In this document: piece after piece, positions 5,853-61,400 of the stretch | Layout: every line of letters begins with the position of its first letter | How positions within the stretch are numbered: the stretch's first letter is position 1 | DNA from: Mobula hypostoma | Taxonomy: Eukaryota | Length of the DNA stretch: 64,000 nucleotides | Reading direction: 5' to 3' | NCBI RefSeq assembly: GCF_963921235.1 | Contig: NC_086108.1 | Span: 4,712,001 to 4,776,000 of the forward strand | The notes under the pieces: model-generated | What the model was told of the DNA's origin: nothing | What the model saw: only the letters and a program-made list of their open reading frames with translations | Database searches by the model: none | Made by a program: the position numbers and the translations under genes

Positions 5853-7541
5853 GTTCCCCTCTACCACCACTCTGCTCCGTCTAGCGAAACTAGTCCTTAC
5901 TCTTAATAATTTCTCCTTTGGCTCCTCCAAACTAAAGGTGTAGCTATGGGCACCCTCATGGATCCGAGCTATGCCTGCCTTTTTGTTGGCTTTGTGGAAC
6001 AATCTATGTTCCGTACCTATTCTGATATCTGTCCCCCACTTTTCTTTCGCTACATCGACGACTGCATTGGCGCTGCTTCCTGCACGCATGCTGAGCTTGT
6101 TGACTTTATTAACTTTGCCTCCAAATTTCACCCTGCCCTCAAGTTTACCTGGTCCATTTCCGACACCTCCCTCCACTTTCTAGATCTTTCTGTCTCTGTC
6201 TCTAGAGACAGCTTATCTACTGATGTCTACTATAAGCCTACTGACTCTCACAGCTATCTGGACTATTCCTCTTCTCACCGTCTCTTGCAAAAATGCCATC
6301 CCCTTCTCGCAATTCCTCCGTCTCCGCCGCATCTGCTCTCAGGATGAGGCTTTTCATTCCAGGATGAGGGAGATGTCCTCTTTTTTTAAAGAAAGGGGCT
6401 TCCCTTCCTCCACCATCAACTCTGCTCTCAAACGCATCTCCCCCATTTCGTGCACACCTGCTCTCACTCCATCCTCCCGCCACCCCACTAGGAATAGGGT
6501 TCCCCTGGTCCTCACCTACCATCCCACCAGCCTCCGGGTCCAACATATTATTCTCTGTAGCTTCCGCCACCTCCAACGGGATCCCACCACTAAGCACATC
6601 TTTCCCTCCCCACCTCTCTCTGCTTTCCGCAAGGATCACTCCCTACGCGACTCCCTTGTCCATTCGTCCCCCCCATTCCTCCCCACTGATCTCCCTCCTG
6701 GCACTTATCCTTGTAAGCGGAACAAGTGCTACACATCCCCTTACACTTCCTCCCTTACCACCATTCAGGGCCCCAAACAGTCCTTCCAGGTGAGGCGACA
6801 CTTCACCTGTGAGTCAGCTGGGGTGATAGATGCGTCCGGTGCTCCTGATGTGGCCTTTTATATATTGGCGAGACCCGACGCAGACTGGGAGATCGCCTTG
6901 CTGAACACCTACGCTCTGTCCGCCAGAGAAAGCAGGATCTCCCAGTGGCCACACATTTTAATTCCACATCCCATTCCCATTCTGACATGTCTATCCACGG
7001 CCTCCTCTACTGTAGAGATGAAGCCACACTCAGGTTGGAGGAACAACACCCTATATTCCGTCTGGGTAGCCTCCAACCTGATGGCATGAACACTGACTTC
7101 TCTAACTTCCGCTAATGCCCCACCTCCCCCTCATACCCCATCCGTTATTTATTTATATACACACATTCTTTCTCTCTCTCTCCTTTTTCTCCCTCTGTTC
7201 CTCTGACTATACTCCTTGCCCATCCTCTGGGTTCCCCCCCTCCTCCTTTTCCTTCTCCCTAGGCCTCCTGTCCCATGATCCTCTCATATCCCTTTTGCCA
7301 ATCACCTGTCCAGCTCTTGGCTCCATCCCTCCCCCTCCTGCCTTCTCCTATCATTCTGGATCTCCTCCTCCCACTTTTAAATCTCTTACTAGCTCTTTCT
7401 TCAGTTAGTCCTGACGAAGGGTCTCGGCCTGAAACGTCGACTGTACCTCTTCCTAGAGATGCTGCCTAGCCTGCTGCGTTCACCAGCAACTTTGATGTGT
7501 GTTGCTTGAATTTCCAGCATCTGCAGAATTCCTCGTGTTGA
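5853..7541 (+). mobile_element. 5'-truncated Penelope-like element (RT + GIY-YIG + pLTR)
   Basis: GVAMG...FFRYIDDCIG...HFLDL...YYKPTDSHSYL (RT); FTCESAGVI...YIGETRRRLGDRLAEH (GIY-YIG); pyrimidine-rich 3' region and pLTR; CAGTCA at both junctions. Confidence 0.93.
7407..7442 (+). ncRNA. Minimal type I hammerhead ribozyme motif in PLE pLTR
   Basis: AGTC-CTGACGA-AGGGTCTCGGCCT-GAAAC-GTC^GACT: core CUGANGA/GAAA, helix I AGTC/GACT, GUC triplet (predicted cut after 7438). Confidence 0.8.
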
Positions 7542-14437: not shown

Positions 14438-16374
14438 ACGTTGACCTGTTATCCTTAGTCCCAGCCACCTGCACTCGGGCCTTAGACCTCCACACCCCTC
14501 CCATCCATGTACCTATCCAAACTTCCCTTAAATGTTAAAAATTAGACCTTTAATAGCCACTTCAGTGGACAGATCATTCCACACTCCCATCGTACTCTGA
14601 ATGAAGAAGCTTCCCCCTCAGGTTCCCCTTAAATATTTCTCTTTCTATGTATCAGTAGTACTGATGGGTGCCCATTGGTCAGCATGAATACGATGGGCCG
14701 ATTGGTCAGTTTCCAAGCTGGACCACTCAATTACTCTATCTTAAAATTTTACAAAGTGACATCTCAAATTTTAGTGGAAGCTTCCAGTAATGAATCTTAA
14801 TTTGACAAAGCTTCCTCTAAAGATGAGAAAGAGATATTTCTCAACCATAGATCAAATACCCAATTATAACAACATGAACTGCAATACATCTCCTTTGGAG
14901 AACTGTCAAAGCTTGCATTTAATCCAGTGACTGATATTTGCTTCCCATCTGCATGTTAAGCTTTGAAAGGAACATTATGGGCTATTTTGGTGCATTTGTA
15001 TCTCTGTAGCCAGAGCCAAGTGCAAAAGATCAGTGCCACTTGTCCTTAACGGTACGTGGACTGTCTGGTATGGAGGGCCCACGTGACAGGATCACAAAAA
15101 GCTGCACAGGGTTGTAGGCCCAGTCACAACCATCATGGGTACTAGCCTTCCCACATCGAGGACATCTTCAAAAGGAAATGCATCACAAAGGGGGCATCCG
15201 TCATTAAGGATGCCCATCACCAAGGATATGCGCTCTTCTCATTACTACCATCAAGGAGGAGGTAAAGGAGCCACAGGAGCTTGAAGACAACCACACAATA
15301 TTTTAGGACAGCTTCTTCCCCTCTGCCATCAGAATTCTGAATGGACATTGAAGACATGACCACCACCTCATTATTTTTAATACTTATTTAATTGTGTGTG
15401 TATGTGTGTGTGTGTGTACACACACATACATATACACACTGACAAGGTTCATTTTATTGTCAAAGTATGCACATACAATACAAGTCTAATATTTGTCTTC
15501 TCTAGATGGCCATTAAATACAGAAAGGCCATGGGTGTTGAAAGAAATTAACTCCCCTCCAACTGGCACGAGAAAGGAAAGATACCACAATTCCCTACACT
15601 CCTGCAGCAAAAACACAGCCACAATAACAATCAATGATCCCTTACACATAACAATCCCTAACTCCTCACTTGCAGAAAAGAACAGAGACAGTTGTACCAA
15701 AGCTCCAAACCCCTTACACACAGAAAAAATCACCACCCGCTAATCATCCGCAAGAACATACCAAAAAAACTAAAGGAAACCAATATAAAGTGCAGTTCAA
15801 TAGTCACATAAAGCTCAGAATACGGTAAATGTCTTTTTGTCTGCATACGAGGAGAGCAGCCGCACAAACTCGGTCCTTCTGTAAAGAGTGATGGCTGACT
15901 CGCTGTCCAAATGCCGCTGATCCGGCCGCTGACCCTCTCTGTCGGGAGCCATCACTGACCCCTCCGCATTCACCGTGATGCTTCAATCTTCCTTGCTGCT
16001 TCGAAATGGAGTTGTCCATCACCCCACGCCTCGTCCCCGGCCTTCTCCATGAGTTAACTTGTGTTCTCGGACCTTTTTGGCACCCCCATCCCCCATCTCT
16101 GATCTCCATGAGACAGCATGTGTTCTTGGTCCTTTTGCCCCCCCCCCACCCCGTCTCTGATCTACACGAGGGAGCTCTCCAGACAGCACAGCGCGAGATC
16201 CTTTGATGGAGATTCAAACTGTACATCACAGGCTCCAACAGTTTCCATAACACAAACAAGACAAAAAGAATGAGCAGAAAACATAGAAAGAGGGTAACAA
16301 ATGGAAAGATTTGCTTTCTGGATGATGTTGCCCGAGGAATCATTGTTCGCTGGTGCTACCTTGACCGGACTGTG

Positions 16375-22929: not shown

Positions 22930-23495
22930 AGTCATAGAGCACTAAAGCACAGAAACAGGCTCTTTGGCCCATTTAGACAGTGTTGAACTATTATTCTGCC
23001 TACTCCCATCGGTCTACACCCAGACCACAGCTTTCCGTACCCCTCCCATCCACCTAGACAGTGTCGAACTATTATTCTGCCTACTCCCATCGGCCTACAC
23101 CCAGACCACAGCCTTCCATACCCCTCCCATCCATCTAGACAGTGTCGAACTATTAATCTGCCTAGTCCTATCGGAATGCACCCAGTCCACAGCCTTCTGT
23201 ACCCCTCCCATCCATGCACTCACCCTAACTTCCCTTAAATGTTGAAATCAAACCTGCATCCATCACTTCCACTGGCAGCCCGTTCCACACTTGCTGTATC
23301 GTCTGTGTGAAGAATTTTTCCCTCATGTTCCCCTTAAAATTTTCACCTTTCACCCCTAGCACATGACCTCTAGTTCTAGTCTCACCCAACCTCAGTGGAA
23401 AAAGCTTGCTTGCACTTACCTTATCCATATCCCTCATAATTTTGTACATCTCTATCAAAACTCCTCTCATTCTCCTACACTCTAGGAAATAACCT
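22930..23495 (-). mobile_element. CR1 3' fragment with triplicated 81-bp segment
   Basis: ORF 23225-23470 is a CR1 C-terminus; repeat units start at 22974, 23055, 23136. Confidence 0.88.
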
Positions 23496-23699
23496 ACTCA
23501 CTGCCCATTAAACTGCTGGCGTTCAGGCAGCAATGAAGGTTTTCTGTCTCTGTCTGTGCTTGGCCACCAGGAAGTACCGCTTTTGGCGGAGGGAGTGGAG
23601 GTGCTCAACGAACTGGTCCCCCAATTTACAACGGGTCTCACCAATGTAGAGGAGGCCACATTGGGAGCACCGGACACACAAACAACGACTGACAGACTA

Positions 23700-25234: not shown

Positions 25235-26080
25235 GTTACACACACAAAATGCTGGGGGAGCTCAGCAAGTCGGGTGGCAGCTAGTATCTTACAGGTGTTA
25301 AGATGTCCACATCTGCAGAATCTCCTGTCTTTAGGTTTTGTGTTGTCTGCACTACATGCCTGCTACCACGCACAAAATGCCGGAGCAACTCAGCTAGTCA
25401 GACAGCATTTGTGTCCAGAGCAACTCACACAAAATGCCGGAGGAACTCAGCAAGTCAGACAGCAGCTATGGAAATGAATAAATTGTTGACGTTTTGGGCC
25501 AAGACCCTTATACAGGACTGGAAATGAAGGGGGAAGACACCAGAATAAAAACATTGGGGGGCAGGGAGACAAGCTGGAAGGTGATAGGTGAACCTAGGTG
25601 GATGGGAAAGGTAAAGGGCTGGAGAGGAAGGAATCTGATAGGAGAGGAGAGTGAACCACAGGAGAAAGGGAGGTGATTGGCAGGTGAGATGAGGTAAGAG
25701 GCAGAGATCACAGGGGGGAGCTGTAAGAAGGTGTCTCACTGAACTCCCGGCAAAGAGAAGGTTTAAACTTCTTCAGGGTAGGCGTCCCTCAAAGAGACGG
25801 CAGTAGAGTAGCAAATCATGAGCATGAGGGGTTCTGCAGATGCTGGAAATCCAGAGCAACACACGCAAAATATTGAAGGAACTCAGCGAGTCAGGTAGCA
25901 AGTCAGAAAGGAATACACAGTCAACGTTTCAGTTAAAGATCCTTATCAGGGTCTGAAGAAGAGATCAGCCTGAAACGTTGACTGTTTATTCCTCTCCATA
26001 GATGCTGCCTGACCTGCTGAGTTCCTCCAGCATTTTGTGCGTGTTGCTCTGGATTTCCAGTATCCAGAACTTCTCATGTT
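25235..26080. mobile_element. Cluster of PLE pLTR fragments
   Basis: Repeated cacaaaatgc.ggaggaactcagc ends, a purine tract, and a palindromic copy at 25825-26080. Confidence 0.75.
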
Positions 26081-27541: not shown

Positions 27542-27688
27542 CTGTCGGGACCAACTTTGTGTCGACTGGACGAGATGTTTCCAGACCCCGGAGAGGAGAA
27601 GCTTCCGGAAGGATTTCGGAAAGGTGCAATTCTCTCCGCTGCAGCAGTTGACGGTGTATTGTACAAAGTTTCTGGGTAGCTGACCGGC
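27542..27688 (-). CDS. Host-gene exon (147 nt, phase 2-2)
   Basis: Acceptor tctgtctcgcag|, donor AG|GTGAGA; open frame (R)PVSYPETLYNTPSTAAAERIAPFRNPSGSFSSPGSGNISSSRHKVGPD; CpG-rich unique sequence between repeats. Confidence 0.7.
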
Positions 27689-31090: not shown

Positions 31091-31241
31091 CTAGTTGGAA
31101 CATGATAGAGAATTTCTGAAAGTGATTGTACACTTCCAACTGTTGCTGCAATTAAGTATAAATGGAAAATTCCATGCAGAATATGACCCGTCTACAACCA
31201 CTCTTTGCCTTCTGTGGGCAAGCCAGTTCTGAATCCACAAA

Positions 31242-31422
31242 CAACAGGAATTCTGCAGATGCTGGAAATTCAAGCAACATACATCAAAGTTGCTGGTGAA
31301 CGCAGCAGGCCAGGCAGCATCTATAGGAAGAAGCGCAGTCGACTAACTAAAAGTTAGTCCTGACGAAGGGTCTCGGCCTGAAACGTCGACTGCGCTTCTT
31401 CCTATAGATGCTGCCTGGCCTG
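31242..31422. mobile_element. Palindromic PLE mini-insertion with 13-bp TSD
   Basis: CTGAATCCACAAA at 31229-31241 and 31423-31435; hammerhead motif at 31356-31391. Confidence 0.88.
31356..31391 (+). ncRNA. Minimal hammerhead ribozyme motif
   Basis: Identical 36-mer to 7407-7442. Confidence 0.8.
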
Positions 31423-33883
31423 CTGAATCCACAAAGCAATGTCCCTTGGATCCCATGCCTCCTTACTTTCTCAATAAGCCTTGCATGGGGTACTTTATCA
31501 AATGCCTTGCTGAAATCCATATACACTACATCTACTGCACTACCTTCATCAATGTGTTTAGTCACATCCTCGAGAAATTAAATCAGGCTCGTAAGGCACA
31601 ACCTACCTTTGACAAAGCCATGCTGACTATTCCTAATCATGTTATGCCTCTCCAAATGTTCATAAATCCAGCCTCTCAGGATCTTCTCCATCAACTTACC
31701 AACCACTGAAGTAAGACTCACTGGTCTATAATTCCCTGGGCTATCTCTACTTCCTTTCTTGAATAAGGATACAACATCTGTAACCCTCCAATCATCCGAA
31801 CCTCTCCCGTCCTCATTGATGATGCAAAGATCATTGCCAGAGGCTCAGCAATCTCCTCCCTCGCGTCCCACAGTAGCCTGGGGTACATCTAGTCCGGTCC
31901 AGGTGACTTATCCAACTTGATGCTTTCCAAAAGCACCAGCACATTCTCTTTCTTAATATCTACATGCTCAAGCTTTTCAGCCCACTGTAAGTCACCCCTA
32001 CAACCACCAAGATCCTTTTCTGTAGTCAATACCGAAGCAAAGTACTCATTAAGAACCTCTGCTACCTCCTACGATTCCATTCACACTTTTCCGCTGTCAC
32101 ACTTGATTAGTCCTATGCTCTCACATCTTATCCTCTTGCTCTTCAAAACTTGTAGAATGTCTTGGTGTTTTCCTTAATCTTGTCCGCCAAGGCCTTCTCA
32201 TAGCCCCTTCTGGCTCTCCTAATTTCTTTAAGTTTCTTCCTGCTAGCCTTATAATCTTCTAGAGCTCTATCATTACTTAGTTTTTTTGAATCTTTTGTAA
32301 GCTCTTCTTTTCTTCTTGACTAGATTTACAGTAGCCTTTGTACATCATGGTTCCTGTACCCTACCATCCTTTCCCTGTCTCATTGGCACGTACCTATGCA
32401 GAACTCCATGCAAAATCCCCTGAACATTTGCCACATTTCTTTTGTACGTTTCCCTGAGCATACCAGTTTCCAATTTATGTTTCCAAGTTCCTGCCTGATA
32501 GCTTCATATTCCCCCTTACTCCAATTAAACGCTTTCCTAACTTGTCTGTTCTTATCCCTCTCCAATGCTATGGTAAAGGAGATAGAATTGTGATCACTAT
32601 CTCCAAAATGTTCTCCCACTGAGAGATCTGACACCTGACCAGGTTCATTTCCCAATACCAGATCAAGTACAGCCTCTCCTCTTGTAGGCTTATCTACATA
32701 TTGTGTCAAGAAACCTTCTTGAATACACCTAACAAACTCCACCCCATCTAAACCCCTCACTCTAGGGACATGCCAATCGATATTTGGGAAATTAAAATCT
32801 CCCACCACGACATCTGTTATTATCACACACCTTTCTAGAATCTGTCTCCCTATCTGCTCTTCGATGTCCCTGCTACTATTGGGTGGTCCATAAAACACCC
32901 AGTAGAGTTATTGACCCCTTCCTGTTCCTAACTTCCACCCACAGAGACTCAGTAAGACAATTCCTCCATGACTTCCTCCTTTTCTGCAGCCATGACACTA
33001 TCTCTGATCAACAATGCCACACCCCCACCTCTTTTGCCTCCCTCCCTGTCCTTTCTGAAACATTTAAAGACTGGCACTCGAAGTAACCATTCCTGCTCCT
33101 TAGCCATCCAAGTCTCTGTAATGGCCACAACGTCATAACTCCAAGTACTGATTCCATCCGCTTTGTTCATAATACTCCTTGCATTAAAATAGACACATCT
33201 CAAACCATCGGCCTGAGCACGTCCTTTCTCTATCACCTGCCTATCCTCCCTCTCGCACTGTCTCCAAGCTTTCTCTACTTGTGAGCCAGTTGCCTCTTCC
33301 TCTGTCTCTTCAGTTTGGTTCCCACCAGTCAGCAATCCTAGTTTAAACTCTCCCCAGTAGCCTTAGCAAACCTTCCCGCCAGAATATTGGACCCCGGGAT
33401 TCAAGTGCAACCCGTCCTTTTTGTACAGGTCGCTCCTGCCCCAGAGGAGGTCCCAATGATACAGAAATCTGAATCCCTGCCCCCTGCTCCAATCTGTCAG
33501 CCACGCATTTATCCTCCACCTCACTCTATTCCTATACTCACTGTCACATGGCACAGGCAGTAATCCCGAGATGACTACCTTTGTGGTCCTGCTTCTCAAC
33601 TTCCTTCCTAACTCCCTGTAGTCTGCTTTCAGGACCTCCTCCCTTTTCTTGCCTATGTCATTGGTACCAATATGTACCATGACCTCTGGCTGTTCTCCTT
33701 CCCACTTCAGGATATCGTGGACGAGATCAGAAACATCCTGGACCCTGGCACCTGGGAGGCAAACTACCATCTGTGCTTCTTTCCTGTGTCCACAGAATCG
33801 CCCATCTGACCCCCTAACTATAGAGTCCCCTATCACTGCTGGTACAGATTCTGCGAGAGGTGACATTGTAAGGTTGGTCTTAC

Positions 33884-33905
33884 CTGGGGACTACGGCACG
33901 GTCAC
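33884..33905 (-). CDS. Candidate 22-nt micro-exon
   Basis: Acceptor ttcttctctgctctctgctctgttgacag|, donor CAG|GTAAGA. Confidence 0.5.
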
Positions 33906-34866: not shown

Positions 34867-35924
34867 CTAGGAGGAAATGCAGGCAAGGAAACAGAATTAG
34901 GACAACTGCTGAAATGATAGCTCATAAATCAAGCACTTACTACAAGAAAGGCTGAAAACTCAAGTTATTTATAATGCTGCATCAGCGCATTTCCCTGGAG
35001 ATCATCAAAAGAGCATTTTGCTTCCTGGAGCTGGTGAATACTTCATAATCAAAAAGATTCTGCAGATTTCTGCTTGAAATCCAGAGCAGCAAAGACTCAA
35101 AGTTCTGGGGGAACTCAGCCAGTCAGGAAGGATCTATGGAGAGGAATAAACAGTTGACATTTTGGGCCAAGACCCTTCATCAGGATTAGGAATGAAAGGT
35201 GAAGAAGGCAGAATAAGAAGGTAGGGGGAGAGGGGAGAAGTACAGCTGGCAGGTAAAGCTAAGACCAAGTGAGGAGAAGCTGGTAGGTGGAGAAGTTGGG
35301 AGACGTGAGAAACTGGTGGGGGATAGACACTTCAGGATGAGACCCTTCATCAGGACTACTTCAGAGTCAGAAAAACCAGAGTGCCGAGGAATCAGAATCA
35401 GAATCAGGCTCAATATCTCTGGCCTATGTTGAAAAAAAAGTATAATAAGTAGAGTAAAAAAGTGGAAAAAAATGTAGTGAAGTGGTTCAGTGTCCATTCA
35501 GAAATCAGCTGTTCCTGAATTGTTGAGTGTGTGCCTTCAGGCTCCTGTACCTCTTCTCTGATTGTAGCAATGAGACGGGGGCAGGTCCTGAGTGATGGGG
35601 TCCTCAATAATGGAAGTTGCCTTTTCGAGGCATCGCCTTTTGCAGACGTCGTGGATGCTGGGGAGACCGGTGCCCATGATGAAGCTGACTGAGTTCACAA
35701 CTTTATGCTGCTTATTTCAATTACTGTGACTTTCAGTAAACGCTACGATCGTTTTGACACCAGAACCCTACATTCTCTCATAGAAAGCATTTCTTTTGTT
35801 GCTGTCACCTTTATATTTCTCTGTAAGGATCTTTGCGCAGAGCATCGAGAGTTAATTCCCTATTCCCAACTCTCTGATCAATGATCCTTATATCCCAAGA
35901 TATTCTTAGTTACAAATTGAAAAG

Positions 35925-38316: not shown

Positions 38317-38476
38317 CTTTACAGCAGAGATGAAGAGAAATTTCTTAAGCCAGAAGGTGGAATTCATTGCCATGGATGGCAATAGAAGACAAGCAACTGG
38401 ATATATTTAAAGTGGAGATTGATACGTTCTTGATGAGCCAGGGCATCAAAGGCAAAGGGGAGAAGGCAGGAGAATG

Positions 38477-38783
38477 CAAACAACAGGAATTCTGCAGATG
38501 CTGGAAATTCAAGCAACACACATCAAAGTTGCTGGTGAACGCAGCAGGCCAGGCAGCATCTATAGGAAGAGGTACAGTCGACGTTTCAGGCCGAGACCCT
38601 TCGTCAGGACTCTAGGAAGAGGTACAGTCGACGTTTCAGGCCGAGACCCTTCGCCAGGACTCTAGGAAGAGGTACAGTCGACATTTCAGGCCGAGCCCGA
38701 AGGGTCTCAGCCTGAAACGTCGACTGTACCTCTTCCTAGAGATGCTGCCTGGCCTGCTGCGTTCACCAGCAACTTTGATGTGT
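38477..38783. mobile_element. Palindromic PLE mini-insertion with tandem hammerhead units, 15-bp TSD
   Basis: GAAGGCAGGAGAATG at 38462-38476 and 38784-38798; 50-bp units across 38562-38695. Confidence 0.9.
38576..38611 (-). ncRNA. Minimal hammerhead ribozyme motif
   Basis: Reverse complement is AGTCCTGACGAAGGGTCTCGGCCTGAAACGTCGACT. Confidence 0.8.
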
Positions 38784-38965
38784 GAAGGCAGGAGAATGGG
38801 TTTGAAAGGAAGAATAAATCAGTCATGATGGAACGGCGGAGCAGCGTTGAAGGGCCAAATCGAGTGATTGCACCACGTGTGCACCATCTTCCACTATAAC
38901 TCATCTAGGTTATCTGAATGGAGTAATACCTTGGATTGTGAATACACTGCAGTTCATTCAGCACT

Positions 38966-39145
38966 GAAACAGAACCAAGGAACACTGGAGCACCCATCCC
39001 TCCTCCCCCGCCCCCGAAACAGCACCAAGGAACACTGGATGACCCGCTCCTCATGAAAGTGCACCAAGGGACGTCGGATTACCGTCCCCCAGTGAAACAG
39101 CACCAAGGAACACCAGATCACCCCATGAAAGAGCACCAGCAGAAT
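38966..39145 (+). repeat. Degenerate minisatellite, 5 units
   Basis: GAAACAGCACCAAGGAACAC-like motif at 38966, 39016, 39055, 39094, 39127. Confidence 0.75.
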
Positions 39146-40304
39146 ACATCGACTCTTCAGACAACAGCAGTTTAAGCTGGTGTCTCACTGTCACCTGCTC
39201 CAGTGCAATTGGGATGGACCGGTTAGCCCTGCCAGTGAGGTCCAGGGTTTCGGAAAGAAACACAACATCATTCTGGAGGAACTCAGCAGGTCAGACTACA
39301 TCCACAGAAAGGAATAAACAGTCGATGTTTCAAGTGGAGACCCTTTATCCTAATGGATGAAGCCCGAAATGTTGACTATCTATTCCTTTCCATAGATGCT
39401 GCCTGATTTGCTGAGTTCTACCAGCATTTTGTATGTGTGTTGCTCTGGACTTCCAGCATCTGCCGAATCTCTTGTGTTCACGCAATATCAACTCCCAAGG
39501 TGAGCAGAAGAATGAAACAGCTTAGATTAAAAATAATTGGCTCCTATTAAGCAGTTATTAATTGAACAATAAATTTATTGGCTGCAGTTGTCTTTGTTCT
39601 TGGTTACATGTTTCACCACACATTTATTTTAGAGGGCAGTGAAACAGAGGGCACATAATGAACTCCAACCCATTCCCATGAACACCTATATGCAACAGAG
39701 CACAGGAAGGAGTTCATGCCAATGTCCCATCCACTTGCTGATCTCTATTTCTGCCCTTTCCTCACCCCATCCTCTCTATCAACAGATTTGCACCCAGCTA
39801 TAGGTCAGAATGGGGCTTGCCTCTTTTACAGTTATGCAGCTTTAAAATCGCTGATTTTTCTGGTTGCCTCATTATAGGAGAGGGTGCAGAGGAGATTCAC
39901 CAGGAGAACAGACACAAAGTGCTGGAGGAGCTCAGCATCTATGGATGAGAATAAACAATTGATTTTGGGCTGAGACCCTTCATTAGGACTGGAACAGAAG
40001 GGGTGTGACGAAGGCCCATCGCTAACTACGGATGGCACATGGTGCACTCGGTAAAACGCTCATCCCCAGCAGTAACAGTGACTGGGTCTGAACCAGAGCT
40101 GCTGCATTGAGCTGTCTCATATCGAGGTAGCAGCAACCCGCACAGGTGTGCTGATGGCGGAGGATACCATCTTTAATTCGATAATTGAGTATTTTTTTCC
40201 CAGTTTTTGTCTTGTTTTGAGGTAAATAAAAGCACCGCAATTTATTTTTGCGACTCAAGCCATCTGGTTATTTTTCTTAAACAATTGATCCACAGTTTTT
40301 TGTG

Positions 40305-41165
40305 ACAAGGGGGAAGCAGCCAGAACAAGAAGGTGGAGAGAGGAGAGGAAGAAGTACAAGGTGAGGGGGACAGGGTGAAGTAAGGAGCTGGGAAGTGGAT
40401 TGGTGAAAGAGGTACAGGGCTGGAGAAGGGACCATCTGATAGGAGAGGACTGAAGACCATGGAAGAAGGGGAAGGAGGAGGAGCACCAGAAAGGTAAGAT
40501 GGAAAGGTAAGAAGAGAATGTGTGAGAGGAAAACAATAATGGGAATATGGGAATGGTGAAGGAGAGGATGGGGTGGGGGGGGGGGGCATTACCAGAAGTT
40601 TGAGAAATCGATCTTCATGCCATCAGGTTGGAGGTTACTGAGATGCAATATGAGGTGTTGCTCCTCCAACCTGAGTGTGGCCTCATCGTGGCAGTAGAGG
40701 AGACGATGAACTGACATGTTGGAATAGGAATGGGAAGTAGAATTGAAATGGGTGTCCACTGGGAAATCCTGCGTTTGGTGGCGGATGGAGGGAAGCTGCT
40801 CGATGAAGCTGTCTCCCATTCTACGCTGGGTCTCACTGATATACAGGAGGCCACACTGAGAGCATCAGATGCAGTAGGTGACCCCAACAGACTCACAGGT
40901 GAAGTGTCACCTCACCTGGAAGGGGCAGTGTGGCACTTGTTTCACTTGCAAGGATAAGTACGAGGAGGGAGACCAGTTGGGAGGGACGAGTGGATAAGGG
41001 AGTTGAGTAGGGAGTGATCCCTGTGGAAAATGTTGGGGGAGGGGGGAAGGTTTGCTTGCGGTGGGGTCCCGTTGGAGATGGCAGAAATGACGGAGGATTA
41101 TGTGCTGGATGCGGAGAATTGTGAGGTGGTAGATGAGGACAAGAGGAACCCTACCCCTAGTGTGG
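40305..41165 (-). mobile_element. Penelope-like element fragment (GIY-YIG region)
   Basis: RVPLVLIYH..IQHIILRHF; THFNSTSHS..RLEEQHLILHLSNLQPDGMKIDFSNF. Confidence 0.88.
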
Positions 41166-42047: not shown

Positions 42048-42699
42048 TATTTGAGGCATTAAAGAGAATCGCAGGTAGGCACGTGGAACAAATAAAAATG
42101 GAGGGCTATATAGGAGGGAAAGGTTAAACTGATTTTTGTGGTTGGCACAAGGCTTTGCAGTTCTTGCTACCCGGGTTGAATTCCTGCCACTACTGCCTGT
42201 AAGGAGTTTTTATGTTCTCCCCGTGACCACTTGTGGGTTTCCTCCGGGTACTTTGGTTTCCTCCCACAGTCCAAAGATGTACCGGTTCATAGGCTAATTG
42301 GTCATTGTCAATTGTCCCGTGATTAGGCTCGGGTTAAACCGCGAGGGGGTGGTGTGGGTGCTGGGCAGCACGACTTGAAGGGCTGGAATGGCCTATTCCA
42401 TGCTGTAGCTCAATAAATAAACAAACAAACAAACAAATGTATAAATAAATAAAAGGTCAGCACAACATTGTTCTCTGGCAGGAACTGAGGGATGTTGATA
42501 CGGGGTTTTCTATGCTTTTAGGCTGGTACAATGTAGTTTTATGGACAGTAAAACCCTTTTTTTCCCCAGCAGTTTGAGACAGAGCCAAATATAATCAAAC
42601 ACGAACCACTCCATTCCTTCAGTCAAGCCTGCCACTTCGAGTGATATAAATATTAAAGATTAGCTTTATTTGTCACAAGAACATCAAAACATCCAGTGA

Positions 42700-42922
42700 C
42701 ATACATCAAAGTTGCTGGTGAACGCAGCAGGCCAGGCAGCATCTATAGGAAGAGGCGCAGTCGACGTTTCAGGCCGAGACCCTTCCTGACGAAGGGTCTC
42801 GGCCTGAAACGTCGACTGCGCCTCTTCCTATAGATGCTGCCTGGCCTGCTGCGTTCACCAGCAACTTTGATGTATGCTGCTTGAATTTCCAGCATCTGCA
42901 GAATTCCTGTTGTTTGCGTTTA
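42700..42922. mobile_element. Palindromic PLE mini-insertion with 14-bp TSD
   Basis: AAAACATCCAGTGA at 42686-42699 and 42923-42936; near-perfect inverted arms; hammerhead core at 42786-42817. Confidence 0.9.
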
Positions 42923-45818: not shown

Positions 45819-46101
45819 ACACTCACAACACGCTGGAGGAATTCAGCAGGTCGGGCAGCATCAGTGGAAACGATCAGTCAACGTTTCGGGCCGTAACCCT
45901 TCGTCCGGACTGAAGAGGGAAGGGGCAGAGGCCCTGTTGACTGACAGGGCCTCTGCCCCCTCCTTCTTCAGTCCTGACGAAGGGTTCCGGCCCGAAACAT
46001 TGACTGATCGTTTCCACGGATGCTGCCCGACCTGCTGAATTCCTCCAGCGTGTTGTGAGTGTTGCTTTGACCCCAGCATCTGCAGAGTATTTGTGTTTAC
46101 T
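45819..46101. mobile_element. Palindromic PLE mini-insertion, subfamily 2, 13-bp TSD
   Basis: CTCCATGAAAGTA at 45806-45818 and 46102-46114; hammerhead motifs at 45970-46005(+) and ~45876-45911(-, CGGACGA variant). Confidence 0.9.
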
Positions 46102-47352
46102 CTCCATGAAAGTACTCTCTCCCTCTCTCTCTTCACCCCAAATCAGAACCAAATCAGGTCTAACATCACCTGCATATGTTGTGCTATTTGTTGTTCTGCA
46201 GCAGCAGTATATTGCAATACAAAATAATACAAACTGTGAATTACAGTAACTATATAAAGAAAACACAAATTAAATAATTAGTGCTTTAAAAAAAGCAGTG
46301 AGATAGTGTTCATGGGTTCAATGTCCATTCAGAAATCTGATGGCATTGTTCCTTGAAGATGTCCTGAGTGCTGGGAAGGCTAGTGCCCAAGACGGCACTG
46401 ACTGAATTCACAACTTTCCGTAGCTTCTTTTGATCCTGTGTAGTGCCCCCTCACCCCCGCCACCATACCAGACTGTGATGCAGACAGTTAGAATGCTCTC
46501 CGCGGTACATTTGTGGAAATTCACAAGTATCTTTGGTGACGTACCAAATCTCAAACTCGTAATGAAATCTCACAGCTGTTGTGCCTACTTAGTAACTGAG
46601 TCGATATGTTGGGCTCAGGATTGATCCTCAGAGATGTTGACATCGAGGAACTTGAAATTGCTCCTCCTTTCCACTACTGATCCCTTGTTGAAGACTGATG
46701 TGTGTTCCCTCATTTTACCCTTTCTGAAGTCCACAATCAATTTTTTGGCTGTTACTGAGACACCACTCAACTAGCTGATTATCTCACACCTGTACGCTTT
46801 CTCATCACCACCCGAAATGCACTCACATCTACTTGCTCCTCACCCACTGTGATCACTCCCCTCCCCATGAGAGGACTTTCTGCCTCGCTCTTTTTCTCCC
46901 TCTCTCCACCCGATCCACTCGAAGTCAGAGTCAAAATAAATGCATTATTAAAGTGTGTATATGTTATCATATCCTACCCTGAGATTCATTTTGTAAGACC
47001 ATAAGATATCAGATCAGAATTGGGCCATTCGGCCTATCAAGTCAGCTGATTTAGTATACCCCTCAGCCCCACTCTCCTGCCTTCTCCCTGTATCCCTTCA
47101 TGCCGGACTAACAAAGAACCTGCCTTCTCCCTGTATCCCTTCATGCCGGCCTAACAAAGAACCTATCAAACTCTGCCTTAAGTATGTTCAATGACTCGGC
47201 CTGTGGCAATGAATTCCACAGATTCACCATCTTCTGGCTAGAAAAATTCCTTCTCATCACTATTCTGAAGGGACGTTCCTCTTTTCCGAGGATTTCTAAC
47301 CTGGGGTCTGTGGACCTCTTGCTTAATGATATTGGACTACAGTATAATAAAG

Positions 47353-52484: not shown

Positions 52485-55400
52485 GACATAGGAGCAGAAT
52501 CAGGCCACTCAGCCCATCCAGTCTGCTCCACCATTCCATCATGGCTGATGCCAGATTCCACTCAACCCCATAGACCTGCCTTCTCACCATATCTTTTGAA
52601 CCCTAACTGATGAAGAGACGACCAACTTCTGCCTTAAATATACACACGGACTTGGCTTCCACCGCACTCTGTGGCAGAGTATTCCACAGATTCACTACTC
52701 TCTGGCTAAAAAAAAAACCTTCCTTACGTCTGTTCTAAAGGCTCGCCCCCTCAATTTTGAGGCTGTGCCCTCTAGTTCTGGATACTCCCACCTCACAAAA
52801 CATCCTCTCCACATCCACCCTATCTAGTCCTTTTCACACAAGATACTCTGCAGACGCTGGGGTCAAAGCAACACTAACAACACACTGGAGGAACTCAACA
52901 GGTCGGGCAGCATCCGTGGAAATGATCAGACAACATTTCGGGCCGGAACCCTTCGTCAAGACTGTAGGGGGAAGGGGCAGAGGCCCTATAAAGAAGGTGG
53001 GGGAGGGTGGGAAGGAGAAGGCTGGTAGGTTCCAGGTGAAAAACCAGTAAGGGGAAAGATAAAGGGGTGGGGGAGGGGAAGCAGGGAGGTGATAGGCAGG
53101 AAAGGTGAAGAAGGAATAGGGGAAAACACAATGGGTAGTAGAAGGAGGCGGAATTCTCCAACTTCCGGTAATTCCCTCCCCCTCCCTTCCCCTATCCCTA
53201 TTTCACTCTGCCCCCGCCCCCAGCTGCCTGTCACCCCCCTCATGGTTCCGCCTCCTTCTACTATCCATTGTGTTTTCCCCTATTCCTTCTTCACCTTTCC
53301 TGCCTATCACCTCCCTGCTTCCCCTCCCCTTCCCCTTTATCTTTCCCCTTACTGGTTTTTCACCTGGAACCTACCAGCCTTCTCCTTCCCACCCCCCCCA
53401 CCTTCTTTATAGGGCCTCTGCCCCTTCCCTCTTCAGTCCTGACGAAGGGTTCCAGCCCGAAACGTTCCTCCAGCGTGTTGTGAGTGTTGCCTAGTCCTTT
53501 TGACATTCAGTAGATTTCAAAGAGATCCTCCCACATTCTTCTAAATTCCAGTGAGTACAGGCCCAAAGCTGTCAAATGCTCCTCATGTGTTAACCCCTTC
53601 ATTCTCAGAATCATCCTCATGAACCTCTTCTGGACTCTCTCCAATGACTATACATCCTTTCTGATATATGGTGTCCAAAACAGTTGACAATACTCCAAGT
53701 GCAGCCTGACTAGTGTCTTATAAATGCTCAGCATTATCTCCTTGCTTTTATATTCTATTCCCCATGAAATAAATGCCAGCATTGCATTTGCCTTCTTTAC
53801 CAGAGACTCACCTGTAAATTAACTTTCTGTAAGTGTTGCATGAGGACTCCTAAGTCCCTCTGCACCTCTGATGTTTGAACCTACTCCCCATTTAGATAAT
53901 AGTCCACATTATTGTTGCTTTTACCAAAATGCATTATCATACACTTCCTAACACTTTATTCCATCTGATACTTGTTTGCTCATTCTTCTAATATGTCTAA
54001 GTCCTGATGCAATCGCATTGCTTCCTCAGCACTAACTACCCCTCCTCCTATGTTCGTATCATCTGCAAACTTTGCCACAAAACCATTAATTCCATTATCC
54101 AAATCATTGACAAACAATGTGAAAAGCAGCGGTCCCAATACTGACCCCTGAGGAACACCACTAGTCACTGGCAGTGAACCAGAAAAGGCTCCTTTTATTC
54201 CTACTCTATCCATGCCAGTATCTTTCCTGTAACGCTATAGGACTTTATGTTGTTAAGTAGCCTCATATCTGGCACCTTATCAAATGTCTTCTGAAAATCC
54301 AAGTAAATGACATCCACTGACTCTCCTTCATCGACCCTGCTTGTTACTTTCTCAAAGAACTCTAACAGATTTGTCAGTCAAAATTTCCCTTTCCAGAAAC
54401 CTCTTTCTAAAGATGTAATTCCACCTCTTACCAACAGAGCCACACCACCACCTATGCCTTCCTGCCTGTCCTTTCGATACAAGGTATATCCTTTGATGTT
54501 AAGCTCCCAACTATTGGCCTTCTTTCAACCACAACTCAATGATGCCCACAAAATGATACCAACCAATCTCTTAATTGTGCCAGGAGTTTGTCCAACTTAT
54601 CCCGAATGCTGCGCACATTTAAATACAGCACCTTCAGTCCTGCAATGTTTGCCCTTTTGAATTTTGCCTCTGTGGTACAAATTAATTCTCTGTCTGCATT
54701 TGTACCCAGTCATTGGCTTGTCCTTCCTTACATTCATATTACACCCATCATCTACTGGTAAACCTGCTGGCTCATCCTCAGCTCTGTCATCCCGATTCCC
54801 ATCCCCCTGCCATATTAGCTTAAACCACTCCCAACAGCTCCAGTAAATCTGCCCACAAGAATATTGGTCCCCCTTGGATTCGAGCGCATTCTGTCCCTTT
54901 TGTACCTGCCCCAGAAGAGGTCCCAATGATCCAGAAATCTGAATCCCTGCTCCCTGCTCCCTGCTCCAATTCTTCAGCCACGCATTTATCCTCCACCTCA
55001 TTCTATTCCTCCTCACTCTCGCATGGTACAAACAGCAATCTGAGATTACTACCCTTGAGCGCCTGCTTCTCAGCTTCCTTCCTAACTCCCTTTATTCTTT
55101 TTTTCAGGACCTCCTCTCTTCTCTTTCCTATATCAGTGGTACCAATATGTACCATGGCTTCTGGCTGCTTATCCTCCCTTTTCAGGATATTGTGGATGCT
55201 TCCACATACACCTCAGACCCTGCACCTCAGGGACAAACTACCATCCGTGTTTCCTTTTTGCGTCCACAGAATCGATTATCCTTCCCCCTGACTATAGAGT
55301 CCCCTATAGCTGCTGCCACAGTTCCCCACGCTTCTCAGCCACAGGGCCAGACTCAGTGCCAGAGGCATGGCTGCTGTTGCTTCCCCCAAGTAAGTCCTCC

Positions 55401-55600
55401 CTGCCAAAAGTACTCAAAATGGAATACTAATTGTTGAGGGAGACAGCCACAGGGGTGCTCTCCACTATCTGACGTTCCCTGTTCCCTCTCCTGACAGTCA
55501 TCCATTTATCTTTCTCCTGTAGGCTTGGGGTGACTACCTCCCTGTAATATCTGTCTATCATTTCTTCACTTTCCCTAACAAGCCAAAGGTCATCGAGCCC
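52485..55600 (-). mobile_element. Near full-span CR1 with large internal deletions
   Basis: Esterase ORF1 (~54850-55310), APE start (~54400-54640) fused to RT (DFQKTFDKVP; GVPQGSVLGPLLF..FADDT at 53980-54213), intact 3' end at ~52485. Confidence 0.9.
52835..53490. mobile_element. Long palindromic PLE insertion, subfamily 2, 11-bp TSD
   Basis: CTAGTCCTTTT at 52824-52834 and 53491-53501; inverted arms 52870-53153 and 53245-53490. Confidence 0.88.
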
Positions 55601-57199
55601 AGCTCCACTTCCAGTTCCTGTACTGTAATGATCTATGCTCTATGTTCTCTATGTTCTACCTTATTGGTAGGACTACATTTGAAGACCATCAGAACTGCAG
55701 CTGCCGAAACTGGAGTTTGTTGGATCATAGAAAGACTTGCATTTAACCTACTGCATATTCTTCCAAAATGTGTGTCAACTGGTTGTTGTGATGTGTCTAG
55801 TGTGGTAGTGTAGTGGGTAGTGCTTGTTGTTCTCGCTCTCAGCTTTCACGGCTGGCTTCCAGTCTTGTGAAAAGGACAGCTAAATGTGTAAGTCTCAACC
55901 TGCCAGTACACAGTCTCTCGGGGGGGGGGGGGGGCTACTGGTTAGGATTGAAGTAAGCTGCAGAGAGTTGTAAAATTAGTCAGTTCCATCATTATGGACC
56001 TCCACCACCAATAACATGTCTTTTTCTCATTGCTACCATCAGGAGCCTAAAGGCACACACTGAATATTTCAGGAACAGCTCCTTCCCCTCTGCCATCCAA
56101 TTTCTGAATGAACACTACCTCACTACTTCATATTTCTATTTTTGTACTACTTACTTAATTTAACAATTTAATATATATATTTACTGTAATTCACGTTTTT
56201 TCCTCTATTATTATGTATTGCATTATACAGCTGCCACAAAGACAACAAATTTCGCAACATAGGCTGGTAATATTAAACCTGATTCTGATTCTAATTTTCC
56301 ATCCAAAAACATCCCAATTGATTTCAAAGTCAAAAGTGGTTTCTTCTAGAATGCAAAACAGCTTAGCTTCAACCTGCTGAATTTGGAACACGTTCCACGG
56401 CCATTCAGAACAAGTTTGTGCTGTCAAATGGGGCTATAAATGGGCCACTTCGATGCACTTGAACAGGAGCTGGTGGCTTTTGAAGCGGTGCCGATTGAAA
56501 AAATGTTGCCAATTGTGCTTCATTTCCTCTCCTCCCCTTCAGTTTCGGCAAGACAAAACTAGCCCCATTACAGCGTGCCACACAAAAAGTTGAAAAGGCA
56601 GCTTTGTGTCCCAAGCAGTATTAGAAGAGAAATGAGACACAATGGAAGGGATTTAAAAAAATCCCAAATCATCTGGCATTCATTGGTCACGTCTGGGTAC
56701 AAAGCCCTTTAAGCAATGAGCACACACTACATGCCACTCTGAACTTTTCAGTAAGTTCAGAGGACAAAGCTTCAAGCTAGAAAACATCTTCAAATACAAA
56801 AGAAGTGAATAAATCTCTCCAGCCTCAGTTAAACACCTGAGCATCATCCACATCATGATCAATTGAAAGGCCAGGCTGCAGATTTACAACATGACTTTAA
56901 ACAGGAACAGGATCCCTTGATCCCATTCCACTGTTGCAATTTCCCCTCCTCTTTTCGTATCCTTTCATTTCTTGTTCATGCAACAATCCATCAATCTGAT
57001 TTGAGCATTCACAGCACGGACAGAGAACTTGCAACGTTCTTAGTGAGTGAAAAGGTGTCTCATCTAAACGACCAACTCCTTTATCTGTAACCCTTGTTTC
57101 TGGTAACAAGAATCTTGCTTGAGAACACCAAATAGACTTACAGATCATTGCAGCACAGCAAAAGACCCTTTGGTCCATCTAGTCCCTGCTGAATTAGGA

Positions 57200-58494: not shown

Positions 58495-61400
58495 AGGAAG
58501 GAGAGGAAGGGAACAGGAGGAGCAGAAGGAGGAGGGGGGAGGAGAGGGGAAAAGGAGGGGACAGGGAGGGAGAGGGGGAAGGAGGAGAGGGGGAGTGGGG
58601 GAGGGAGAGGGAGGGAAGGGGAGAGGGTGGGGAGGGGAGAGGGTGGGGAGAGGAGAGGGAGGAGGAGGAGGAGGGGAAGATAGGGAGGAGGAGAGGAGGG
58701 GGTGAGAGGGAGGGGAAAGGGGAAGGAGGGAGAGGGAGGGGAGGGGGAAGATGGGGAGGAGGAGAGGGGGAGGGAGAGGGGGAGAGGGAAGATGGGGAGG
58801 AGGGGGGAGAGGGAGAGGGGGAGAGGGAAGATGGGGAGGAGGAGAGGGGGAGGGAGAGGGGGAGAGGGAAGATGGGGAGGAGGAGAGGGGGAGGGAGAGG
58901 GGGAGAGGGAAGATGGGGAGGAGGGGGGAGAGGGAGAGGGGGAGAGGGAAGATGGGGAGGAGGGGGGAGAGGGAGAGGGGGAGAGGGAAGATGGGGAGGA
59001 GGAGAGGGGGAGGGAGAGGGGGAGAGGGAAGATGGGGAGGAGGAGAGGGGGAGGGAGAGGGGGAGAGGGAAGATGGGGAGGAGGAGAGGGGGAGGGAGAG
59101 GGGGAGAGGGAAGATGGGGAGGAGGGGGGAGAGGGAGAGGGGGAGAGGGAAGATGGGGAGGAGGAGAGGGGGAGGGAGAGGGGGAGAGGGAAGATGGGGA
59201 GGAGGAGAGGGGGAGGGAGAGGGGGAGAGGGAAGATGGGGAGGAGGAGAGGGAGAGGGAGAGGGAGGGGAGGGGGAAGATGGGGAGGAGGAGAGGGGGAG
59301 GGAGAGGGGGAGAGGGAAGATGGGGAGGAGGAGAGGGGGAGGGAGAGGGGGAGAGGGAAGATGGGGAGGAGGGGGGAGAGGGAGAGGGGGAGAGGGAAGA
59401 TGGGGAGGAGGAGAGGGGGAGGGAGAGGGGAGAGGGAAGATGGGAGGAGGGGGGAGAGGGAGAGGGAGGGGAGGGGGAAGATGGGGAGGAGGAGAGGGGG
59501 AGGGAGAGGGGGAGAGGGAAGATGGGGAGGAGGGGAGAGGGAGAGGGGGAGAGGGAAGATGGGGAGGAGGAGAGGGGGAGGGAGAGGGGGAGAGGGAAGA
59601 TGGGGAGGAGGGGGAGAGGGAGAGGGAGGGGAGAGGGAAGATGGGGAGGAGGAGAGGGGGAGGGAGAGGGGGAGAGGGAAGATGGGGAGGAGGAGAGGGG
59701 GAGGGGAGGGGGAGAGGGAAGATGGGGAGGAGGAGAGGGAGAGGGAGAGGGAGGGGAGGGGGAAGATGGGGAGGAGGAGAGGGGGAGGGAGAGGGGGAGA
59801 GGGAAGATGGGGAGGAGGAGAGGGAGAGGGAGAGGGAGGGGAGGGGGAAGATGGGGAGGAGGAGAGGGGGAGGGAGAGGGGGAGAGGGAAGATGGGGAGG
59901 AGGAGAGGGAGAGGGAGAGGGAGGGGAGGGGGAAGATGGGGAGGAGGAGAGGGGGAGGGAGAGGGGGAGAGGGAAGATTCGGAGGAGGAGAGGGGGAGGG
60001 AGAGGGGGAGAGGGAAGATGGGGAGGAGGAGAGGGAGAGGGAGAGGGAGGGGAGGGGGAAGATGGGGAGGAGGAGAGGGGGAGGGAGAGGGGGAGAGGGA
60101 AGATGGGGAGGAGGAGAGGGGGAGGGAGAGGGGGAGAGGGAAGATGGGGAGGAGGAGAGGGGGAGGGAGAGGGGGAGAGGGAAGATGGGGAGGAGGAGAG
60201 GGGGAGGGAGAGGGGAGAGGGAAGATGGGGAGGAGGAGAGGGGGAGGGAGAGGGGGAGAGGGAAGATGGGGAGGAGGGGGGAGAGGGAGAGGGAGGGGAG
60301 GGGGAAGATGGGGAGGAGGAGAGGGGGAGGGAGAGGGGGAGAGGGAAGATGGGGAGGAGGAGAGGGGGAGGGAGAGGGGGAGAGGGAAGATGGGGAGGAG
60401 GGGGGAGAGGGAGAGGGGGAGAGGGAAGATGGGGAGGAGGAGAGGGGAAGGGAGAGGAAGGGGAGGGGGAAGATGGGGAGGAGGAGAGGGGGAGGGAGAG
60501 GGGGAGAGGGAAGATGGGGAGGAGGAGAGGGGGAGGGAGAGGGGGAGAGGGAAGATGGGGAGGAGGAGAGGGGGAGGGAGAGGGAGGGGAGGGGGAAGAT
60601 GGGGAGGAGGAGAGGGGGAGGGAGAGGGGGAGAGGGAAGATGGGGAGGAGGAGAGGGGGAGGGAGAGGGGGAGAGGGAAGATGGGGAGGAGGAGAGGGGG
60701 AGGGAGAGGGGGAGAGGGAAGATGGGGAGGAGGAGAGGGGGAGGGAGAGGAAGGGGAGGGGGAAGATGGGGAGGAGGAGAGGGGGAGGGAGAGGGGGAGA
60801 GGGAAGATGGGGAGGAGGAGAGGGGGAGGGAGAGGGGGAGAGGGAAGATGGGGAGGAGGAGAGGGGGAGGGAGAGGGGGAGAGGGAAGATGGGGAGGAGG
60901 AGAGGGGGAGGGAGAGGGGGAGAGGGAAGATGGGGAGGAGGAGAGGGGGAGGGAGAGGGGGAGAGGGAAGATGGGGAGGAGGAGAGGGGGAGGGAGAGGG
61001 GGAGAGGGAAGATGGGGAGGAGGAGAGGGGGAGGGAGAGGGGGGAGAGGGAAGATGGGGAGGAGGGGGGAGAGGGAGAGGGAGAGAGGGAAGATGGGGAG
61101 GAGGGGGGGAGGGAGAGGGGGAGAGGGAAGATGGGGAGGAGGAGAGGGGGAGGGAGAGGGGGAGAGGGAAGATGGGGAGGAGGAGAGGGGGAGGGAGAGG
61201 GGGAGAGGGAAGATGGGGAGGAGGAGAGGGGGAGGGAGAGGAAGGGGAGGGGGAAGATGGGGAGGAGGAGAGGGGGAGGGAGAGGGGGAGAGGGAAGATG
61301 GGGAGGAGGAGAGGGAGAGGGAGAGGGAGGGGAGGGGGAAGATGGGGAGGAGGGGGGAGAGGGAGAGGGAGAGAGGGAAGATGGGGAGGAGGAGAGGGGG

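What the first reader, a model, noticed from the sequence alone, without database searches (positions are those of the whole stretch)
38562..38783. 50-bp tandem hammerhead array inside one insertion
Seen: the unit ctaggaagaggtacagtcgacgtttcaggccgagacccttcgtcaggact repeats ~2.7 times and is followed by an inverted partial copy. Unit 1 has an intact minus-strand core, unit 2 has CTGGCGA, unit 3 is truncated. Known: minimal hammerheads with a very short palindromic helix III generally cleave efficiently as dimers. Inference: the tandem layout could give an active intramolecular dimer on the same strand as the host pre-mRNA, or it records reverse transcription around a ~50-nt circle or repeated template jumps.
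Basis: partly seen in the sequence, partly recalled or inferred. Interest (0 to 1): 0.72.

Follow-up and report, generated by a model that had tools for sequence, protein, structure and literature searches.

The report
Tandem hammerheads in Penelope insertion scar
Three head-to-tail pieces of a small self-cutting RNA motif sit inside one insertion of a very common jumping gene; they look like a by-product of how that insertion was stitched together, and the only intact motif is predicted to be locked away in a long hairpin.

Summary
In detail: 2.7 copies of a 50-bp unit at 38560-38698, one intact minimal hammerhead core, one A6G core, one truncated. The array lies inside a 307-bp, 5'-truncated, inverted insertion of a very abundant Penelope-like element (PLE), with a perfect 15-bp target-site duplication and the 40-nt one-sided PLE tail. 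Best model: unit 3 is a fold-back copy of the inverted arm, joined to the other arm through a 2-nt microhomology; one further duplication gave 2.7 units. A sister insert shows the same fold-back filler in miniature. On paper unit 1's core and unit 2's GUC form a complete type-III-like hammerhead. Folding disfavours it by about 12 kcal/mol in the array and 25 in the whole insert (benchmarks 0.5-2.5), because the inverted arm pairs with unit 1. The unit seam lies 31 nt from the cut site, which argues against a ribozyme-made circle. I found no host exon, so the 'pre-mRNA strand' claim is unverified. Copy number is not independently confirmed. The scan has noted this PLE's hairpins and hammerhead pairs elsewhere in this genome; no 50-bp array appeared in the listings I saw. 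Known kind, low interest.

The parts
38462..38476 (+). Left copy of the 15-bp target-site duplication
   Evidence: Identical to 38784-38798; the 15-mer occurs only twice in the window
38477..38783 (.). Whole 307-bp insertion: 5'-truncated, inverted PLE end
   Evidence: Removing it and one TSD copy restores an ungapped match to two older repeat copies, 110/149 and 104/149 (D2/D3)
38477..38516 (-). 40-nt one-sided PLE tail (long arm only)
   Evidence: The long arm runs 40 nt past the end of the short arm; the 42.7-kb sister has nearly the same offset; tail described in PMC11167929 and PMC8557442
38517..38611 (-). Long arm including unit 1 (38560-38611) with the only intact minimal hammerhead, 38576-38611: helix I 4 bp, CUGACGA, extra A, helix II 4 bp, GAA, palindromic ACGU, cut site 38580/38579
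   Evidence: 97% identical to the parent PLE end at 7407-7539
38610..38661 (-). Unit 2: full 50-bp copy with A6G in the core (38654); its GUC site (38630/38629) is intact
38660..38698 (-). Unit 3: partial copy without the CUGANGA box; inferred fold-back copy of the short arm
   Evidence: 39 nt, 92% complementary to 38703-38741 across a 4-nt loop (I4); shares the short arm's allele at the unit end
38610..38611 (-). Unit seam: 2-nt AG microhomology (repeated at 38660-38661)
   Evidence: The two AGs lie exactly 50 nt apart in the parent, 7407-7408 and 7457-7458
38581..38634 (-). Potential circularly permuted (type-III-like) hammerhead: unit-2 cut site plus unit-1 core, helix I closed by a 14-nt loop, helix III 4 bp
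   Evidence: Can be drawn with all core bases; not the preferred fold, 5.9 kcal/mol above the ensemble for a 58-nt piece
38698..38784 (+). Short inverted arm; its hammerhead lacks the CUGA bases
   Evidence: 87 nt, 98% complementary to 38517-38603
38784..38798 (+). Right copy of the target-site duplication
   Evidence: a contig of run X1 covers 38761-39050 with 0 differences
5857..7539 (+). Related 5'-truncated, frameshifted PLE copy: RT, cysteine linker, GIY-YIG endonuclease, then the terminal repeat with the same hammerhead at 7407-7443
   Evidence: tblastn of P0002 gives four pieces at 47-70% identity, E 2e-104; homologs carry PF00078 and PF01541
31238..31425 (.). Sister inverted insertion with a 13-bp TSD and an 8-bp fold-back filler at its centre (31341-31359); no tandem
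42699..42922 (.). Sister inverted insertion with a 14-bp TSD; its arms stop within 2 nt of where the two arms of the flagged insert stop; no tandem

Best explanation
This is one dead, 5'-truncated, inverted insertion of a very abundant endonuclease-bearing Penelope-like element, and the 50-bp array is a local scar. Shown: TSD, tail, inverted arms, identity to a PLE end, position and microhomology of the seam, allele pattern. Inferred: both target ends primed reverse transcription on PLE RNA, at the two start sites that define the tail, possibly on two different RNA molecules, and both copies stopped inside the hammerhead. The short-arm end folded back and copied about 40 nt of itself (unit 3). 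That new end annealed to the long-arm end by AG microhomology, which gave about 1.8 direct units. One later slippage or unequal exchange between them added unit 2. The array most likely has no function: any read-through RNA forms an 87-bp hairpin that holds the one intact core, and the core left free is the A6G mutant.
For: Perfect 15-bp TSD and restored empty site. 97% identity to the end of a PLE with RT and GIY-YIG in the same window. Inverted truncated arms, one-sided 30-40-bp tails and palindromes at the inversion are described PLE traits (PMC3846280, PMC8557442, passages). The PAc protein extends both DNA strands from two RNA start sites (PMC11167929). 3 of the 4 young copies in the window are inverted with TSDs, and all 6 of their arms stop between -8 and +25 of C3. 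The 31-kb sister has a fold-back filler plus microhomology. Unit 2 is a hybrid: it is like unit 1 at 38633/38646 and like unit 3 at its end allele, as a duplication of the seam predicts. Snap-back synthesis followed by microhomology annealing is a described repair route in Drosophila (PMC5728401, passages). Whole insert folds to -211 kcal/mol, z -24; hammerhead fold costs about 25 kcal/mol against 0.5-2.5 for 2 benchmarks.
Against: The order of events rests on one diagnostic base and three inserts. Repeated jumps by the reverse transcriptase would give nearly the same sequence. Snap-back repair is shown for DNA breaks, not for PLE insertion, and the fold-back here (about 40 nt) is far longer than the sister's 8 nt. 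ViennaRNA ignores tertiary contacts and proteins; the PAc hammerhead cleaved only with its protein present. While RNA is being made the penalty is lower, 14-16 kcal/mol. I could not count the seam genome-wide (no genome held; one search did not resolve it).
Confidence: 0.72

Rival explanations
1. The array was written in one go by repeated template jumps of the PLE reverse transcriptase: it stalled at the 5' edge of helix I and twice re-primed 50 nt back on an RNA through the AG microhomology. Still a one-off, inactive by-product.
For: Identical seam twice; arms of young copies stop inside the hammerhead; contigs of run X1 show other go-back joints in the family, 38579 to 38476 and 38607 to 38521 (table 5c); template jumps have been proposed for PLEs (PMC3846280).
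Against: Needs two independent jumps on 2 nt of homology. It does not by itself explain why unit 3 is a near-perfect hairpin partner of the short arm, or the matching filler in the 31-kb sister.
Confidence: 0.13
2. The tandem is a working cis ribozyme: unit 1's core cuts unit 2's GUC during transcription, before the long hairpin closes, and so cuts a host transcript.
For: All core bases and three 4-bp helices can be drawn for this pairing. In nascent RNA the short arm is first taken up by units 3 or 2. Axolotl retrozyme dimers cleave far better than monomers (PMC7229834, passages).
Against: Fold penalty 5.9 (58-nt piece), about 12 (array), 14-16 (nascent), about 25 kcal/mol (whole insert) against 0.5-2.5 for benchmarks. 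No helix I-II tertiary contact was tested or is expected for min-HHRs. Published PLE min-HHR dimers are slow. No host exon or transcribed strand was found. The partner core has decayed (A6G).
Confidence: 0.06
3. The array records reverse transcription round a 50-nt RNA circle, so it is a copy of a tiny mobile retrozyme.
For: Circles as templates were proposed for PLE tandems (PMC4209133); reported retrozyme families start at 51 bp.
Against: The parent PLE has one cut site, so it cannot release this circle; the seam is at 38610-38611, 31 nt from the cut site. Unit 1 differs from units 2-3 at a family allele. The array is framed by ordinary PLE arms, not by its own TSD. The seam occurs at 1 of 16 family loci in the window.
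Confidence: 0.04
4. The extra unit is an assembly artefact in a hairpin-forming repeat.
For: No listed contig piece spans the array (table 8 cut; 200,428 pieces not shown). Inverted PLE structures trouble assemblies (PMC8557442).
Against: The three units differ from one another at 4 places, two typical of CpG-type or transition decay; both TSD copies are perfect; the right junction is matched by a contig with 0 differences, though only 24 letters lie inside the insert and X1 may be the assembly's own sample.
Confidence: 0.05

Closest known systems
Minimal type I hammerheads in PLE pseudo-LTRs (Cervera and de la Pena 2014, PMC4209133; parts 1-2 of 4 read)
   Same: Short helix I, extra base between 9 and 10.1, palindromic 15.2-16.2 with no loop III, location in the PLE terminal repeat.
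   Different: Natural partners are whole pLTRs apart (about 100 bp to 3 kb); here three pieces sit 50 nt apart and two are damaged.
Inverted, 5'-truncated PLE insertions with tail and TSD (PMC3846280 and PMC8557442, passages; PMC11167929, parts 1-2 of 4)
   Same: Head-to-head arms, palindromic centre, one-sided 40-nt tail, TSD.
   Different: Carries about 90 nt of extra direct-repeat filler at the centre; no coding sequence. The window's parent copy has a cysteine linker before the endonuclease, as described for Neptune; clade not tested by a tree.
Non-LTR retrozymes (Cervera and de la Pena 2020, PMC7229834, passages; Li et al., bioRxiv 10.64898/2026.07.22.740005, parts 1-3 of 5; supplements not seen)
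   Same: Tandem units each holding hammerhead sequence, derived from a PLE terminal repeat; 50 bp is at the low end of the reported 51-972 bp.
   Different: Only 1 of 3 units has a complete core; embedded in an inverted PLE scar; no sign of expression, circles or spread.
Snap-back SD-MMEJ templated insertions (PMC5728401, passages)
   Same: Fold-back synthesis, then annealing by new microhomology, leaving direct and inverted repeats.
   Different: Described for double-strand-break repair in Drosophila; applied here by inference to joining two PLE cDNA ends.

Membership tests
Endonuclease-bearing Penelope-like element insertion | Sequence continuous with an RT + GIY-YIG ORF | tested here: met
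   97% identical to 7407-7539, which follows RT and GIY-YIG pieces at 5857-7091
Endonuclease-bearing Penelope-like element insertion | Inverted 5'-truncated arm with a one-sided 30-40-bp tail | tested here: met
   87-nt inverted arm, 40-nt tail
Endonuclease-bearing Penelope-like element insertion | Target-site duplication | tested here: met
   15 bp, perfect
Neptune clade of PLEs | CX2-5CxxC linker between RT and EN; placement in an RT tree | tested here: inconclusive
   Linker cysteines seen in the 7-kb copy, the last one substituted, and complete in P0002 (motif per PMC8557442); no tree built
Minimal type I hammerhead (min-HHR) | CUGANGA and GAAA boxes, NUH site, helices I and II, palindromic helix III | tested here: met
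   Met for unit 1 only (1 of 3 units); unit 2 has A6G, unit 3 lacks the first box
Minimal type I hammerhead (min-HHR) | Self-cleavage as a dimer | not testable with these tools
   Folding only: penalty 5.9-25 kcal/mol against 0.5-2.5 for 2 of 3 benchmark loci; the third had no type I site and was dropped
Rfam hammerhead families | Covariance-model match | tested here: not met
   No match at gathering score; none among 13 weak matches. Min-HHRs lack helix III, so this is expected
Non-LTR retrozyme (Li et al. criterion) | [quoted passage not shown] | tested here: not met
   1 of 3 units complete (criterion). It may have been met before the A6G change
Non-LTR retrozyme | Expressed linear and circular monomers | not testable with these tools
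   Only contigs were available; they show neither strand nor ends
Non-LTR retrozyme | Spread as a family to other loci | tested here: inconclusive
   Seam at 1 of 16 family loci in the window; no genome held; 0 hits in prokaryotic, viral and metagenome collections, which are not expected to hold this DNA

The most novel reading that the evidence does not exclude
Fold-back joining of Penelope cDNA ends is a recurring way to turn an obligate-dimer type I minimal hammerhead into a compact, circularly permuted (type-III-like) cis ribozyme with a 50-nt repeat. This locus would be a snapshot of the birth of the smallest retrozymes, able to cut at 38630/38629 once freed from the inverted arm, and of hammerhead permutation by tandem duplication, a route put forward as a model in PMC10085705 (passage).
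Probability: 0.1. Interest if true: 0.55.

Novelty: new member of a known kind. Interest (0 to 1): 0.2.

Why it matters
As it stands it is a tidy scar that bears on how Penelope insertions are finished: two cDNA ends, possibly from two RNA molecules, joined by fold-back synthesis and microhomology. That step is still open in the literature I read (PMC11167929). If the permuted hammerhead cuts, or the seam recurs across the genome, it would show a concrete route from a PLE terminal repeat to a minimal retrozyme, which the 2026 preprint infers only from phylogeny and co-occurrence. Without that it is one of very many dead copies.

Tried and rejected
Genome-wide count: no genome held. Exact-pattern scans for the family or seam found 0 loci in genome contigs, viral contigs and metagenome contigs; uninformative for an animal repeat. 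Sequencing runs: no RNA holder listed as on record. I laid 4 of the 24 listed runs, all contigs. The reference already holds the seam, so its depth could not be read; no empty-site joint was among the 15 shown (750 not shown), so the insertion could not be dated against organisms B and C. One contig of X9 (RNA is a guess) covers the left flank; strand and level cannot be told. Host gene: two splice-site scans and a looser one, a composition ranking of 418 open frames, and Pfam on 100 frames gave no match at a curated cut-off. The best-looking candidates (812-907, 27542-27688) read as LINE remnants (recalled resemblance; one search found no solved-structure match). This does not exclude a long intron. 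Rfam microRNA matches at 38613-38740 are far below gathering score and reflect the hairpin. Plus-strand activity rejected: the short arm lacks CUGA and is also paired. The 5' ends of older copies near -2 to -5 were not counted as breakpoints, since subfamily divergence gives the same pattern. Lunse et al. 2017 is not held; seen only as a reference entry. The effect of A6G is recalled, not read: one search listed one paper, which I did not open. Searches for a description of such an array found only the general works cited.

Full report
Observation. The array is there as described: period 50, 2.7 copies, 97% matches at 38563-38695. On the minus strand unit 1 has a complete minimal hammerhead, unit 2 has A6G at 38654, and unit 3 lacks the CUGANGA box. 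The seam between units occurs twice in the window, both times here, and never in 100 shuffles. Rfam does not recognise the motif, as expected for a hammerhead without helix III. Short arrays are not rare in this DNA: one search lists six with periods of 39-81 and 2-3 copies.

What it sits in. The array is the middle of a 307-bp insertion, 38477-38783, flanked by a perfect 15-bp duplication. Removing the insertion restores an ungapped match to two older repeat copies nearby (110/149 and 104/149). The insertion has a long arm and an 87-nt inverted short arm (98%), and the long arm is 40 nt longer at its outer end. It is 97% identical to 7407-7539, the end of a truncated element whose upstream part encodes reverse transcriptase and GIY-YIG endonuclease pieces. 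All 9 homologs found are of this type or fragments of it; the one named hit is from a shark, at 59% identity. Inverted truncated arms, a one-sided 30-40-bp tail, palindromes at the inversion and TSDs are the described anatomy of Penelope-like insertions (PMC3846280 and PMC8557442, passages). The tail matches the two reverse-transcription start sites of the anole element, whose protein extends both DNA strands (PMC11167929, parts 1-2 of 4). The family is very abundant: 25 hits in 16 loci in the window, and summed contig depth in the millions against 13-16 on the flanks (the tool warns this is no copy number).

How the tandem arose. Four facts bear on it. First, the seam is a 2-nt AG microhomology between two places exactly 50 nt apart in the parent, 31 nt from the cut site. 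Second, unit 3 is the hairpin partner of the short arm across a 4-nt loop. Third, unit 1 and its tail carry the allele of the 31-kb and 42.7-kb sisters, while units 2 and 3 and the short arm carry the allele of the 7-kb copy. Both alleles appear common in the family, since contigs sort onto both arms at high depth, so two RNA templates are likelier than a chance change; this is one base. Fourth, the sisters show the parts separately: the 42.7-kb insert stops both arms within 2 nt of the same places and joins them directly, and the 31-kb insert has an 8-bp fold-back filler joined by microhomology. The simplest history is fold-back synthesis from the short-arm end, annealing to the long-arm end at AG (about 1.8 units), then one duplication of the period. 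Unit 2 is a hybrid of units 1 and 3, as this predicts. Snap-back synthesis with microhomology annealing is known from break repair (PMC5728401, passages); its use here is inference. Repeated jumps by the reverse transcriptase remain possible; other go-back joints exist in the family. A ribozyme-made circle is unlikely, because the parent has one cut site and the seam is elsewhere.

Could it cut? With a 50-nt period, unit 2's GUC and helix I strand are linked by a 14-nt loop to unit 1's intact core, and the two ACGU palindromes can form a 4-bp helix III. That is a complete hammerhead in type III order, cutting at 38630/38629. The reciprocal site uses the A6G core; that such a change cripples catalysis is recalled, not read here. 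Folding is against it. The cost of the hammerhead fold over the ensemble is 5.9 kcal/mol for a 58-nt piece, about 12 for the array or long arm, 14-16 for nascent RNA and about 25 for the whole insert. Two natural type I loci treated in a similar way cost 0.5-2.5 (Rfam support for them below gathering score; a third locus had no type I site and was dropped; their activity is not known). In the whole insert unit 1 pairs with the short arm with mean probability 0.92, leaving the damaged units free. The model ignores tertiary contacts and proteins, and the anole hammerhead needed its protein to cut. Published activity is modest: low for min-HHR dimers and trimers (PMC4209133, parts 1-2 of 4), 1 of 9 for Xenopus dimers (bioRxiv 10.64898/2026.07.22.740005, parts 1-3 of 5), better for axolotl dimers (PMC7229834, passages).

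Host transcript. I found no host exon in the window, so neither an intronic position nor the strand is shown. The laid contigs cannot show strand.

Artefact. No listed contig spans the array. A contig of run X1 matches 38761-39050 without differences, but only 24 letters lie inside the insert and the run may be the assembly's own sample. Differences among the units and the intact TSD argue that the array is real.

Comparison and verdict. It is a member of the Penelope-like insertions on every feature tested. It works like the seed of a non-LTR retrozyme but fails the published criterion of two consecutive complete hammerheads; tandems as short as 51 bp are already reported, and the supplements that list them were not seen. 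Tandem duplication as a route to permuted hammerheads has been proposed as a model (PMC10085705, passage). Searches found no description of a 50-bp array in a cartilaginous fish. Earlier notes of this scan describe the same family's hairpins and hammerhead pairs as ordinary; they are not independent support. Verdict: real, known kind, probably inactive, interest 0.2. The open point worth a cheap test is whether the permuted 58-nt motif cuts and whether the seam recurs.

Noticed in passing
window 31238-31425: In this sister insert the long arm begins at the predicted hammerhead cut site, within a 3-nt microhomology, next to an 8-bp fold-back filler. It may record a ribozyme-cut template; one case.
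   Followed up: partly
run X1, joint 38579 to 38476: Contigs at depth about 52 run from the cut-site position straight back to the element's tail end: a head-to-tail junction of about 104 nt elsewhere in the genome that does fall at the cut site, unlike the flagged seam. A better candidate for a cut-and-rejoined unit.
   Followed up: no
window 35039-35363: Older-subfamily insert with two direct hammerhead-bearing pieces about 175 nt apart inside a 7-bp duplication: a partial tandem.
   Followed up: partly
window 38562-38575 (minus) and 39396: The unit ends at a pyrimidine run plus AG that resembles a 3' splice site; the same place in an older copy scored as an acceptor. An intron ends inside the hammerhead of Drosophila Penelope.
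   Followed up: no
window 5857-7539 and 40616-41152: Two truncated, frameshifted PLE copies with RT or endonuclease remnants; a third fragment at 23538-23678.
   Followed up: partly
window 58566-63414: 4.8-kb purine-rich array, period 41, about 118 copies, GC skew up to 1.0.
   Followed up: no
window 9594-9731, 16044-16170, 22969-23215, 39016-39122, 47076-47164: Five other short tandem arrays with periods 39-81 and 2-3 copies.
   Followed up: no
window 10889-11961 (minus): Tc1/mariner-type transposase remnant with a Sleeping Beauty HTH match below cut-off.
   Followed up: partly
window 31350-33890 and 53983-55639 (minus): LINE remnants with endonuclease and RT-like frames; the 31-kb PLE insert sits inside the first.
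   Followed up: no
window 25823-26080, 39255-39481, 45844-46086, 52836-53465: Older inverted inserts of related PLE subfamilies, 70-87% identical to the young copy.
   Followed up: partly
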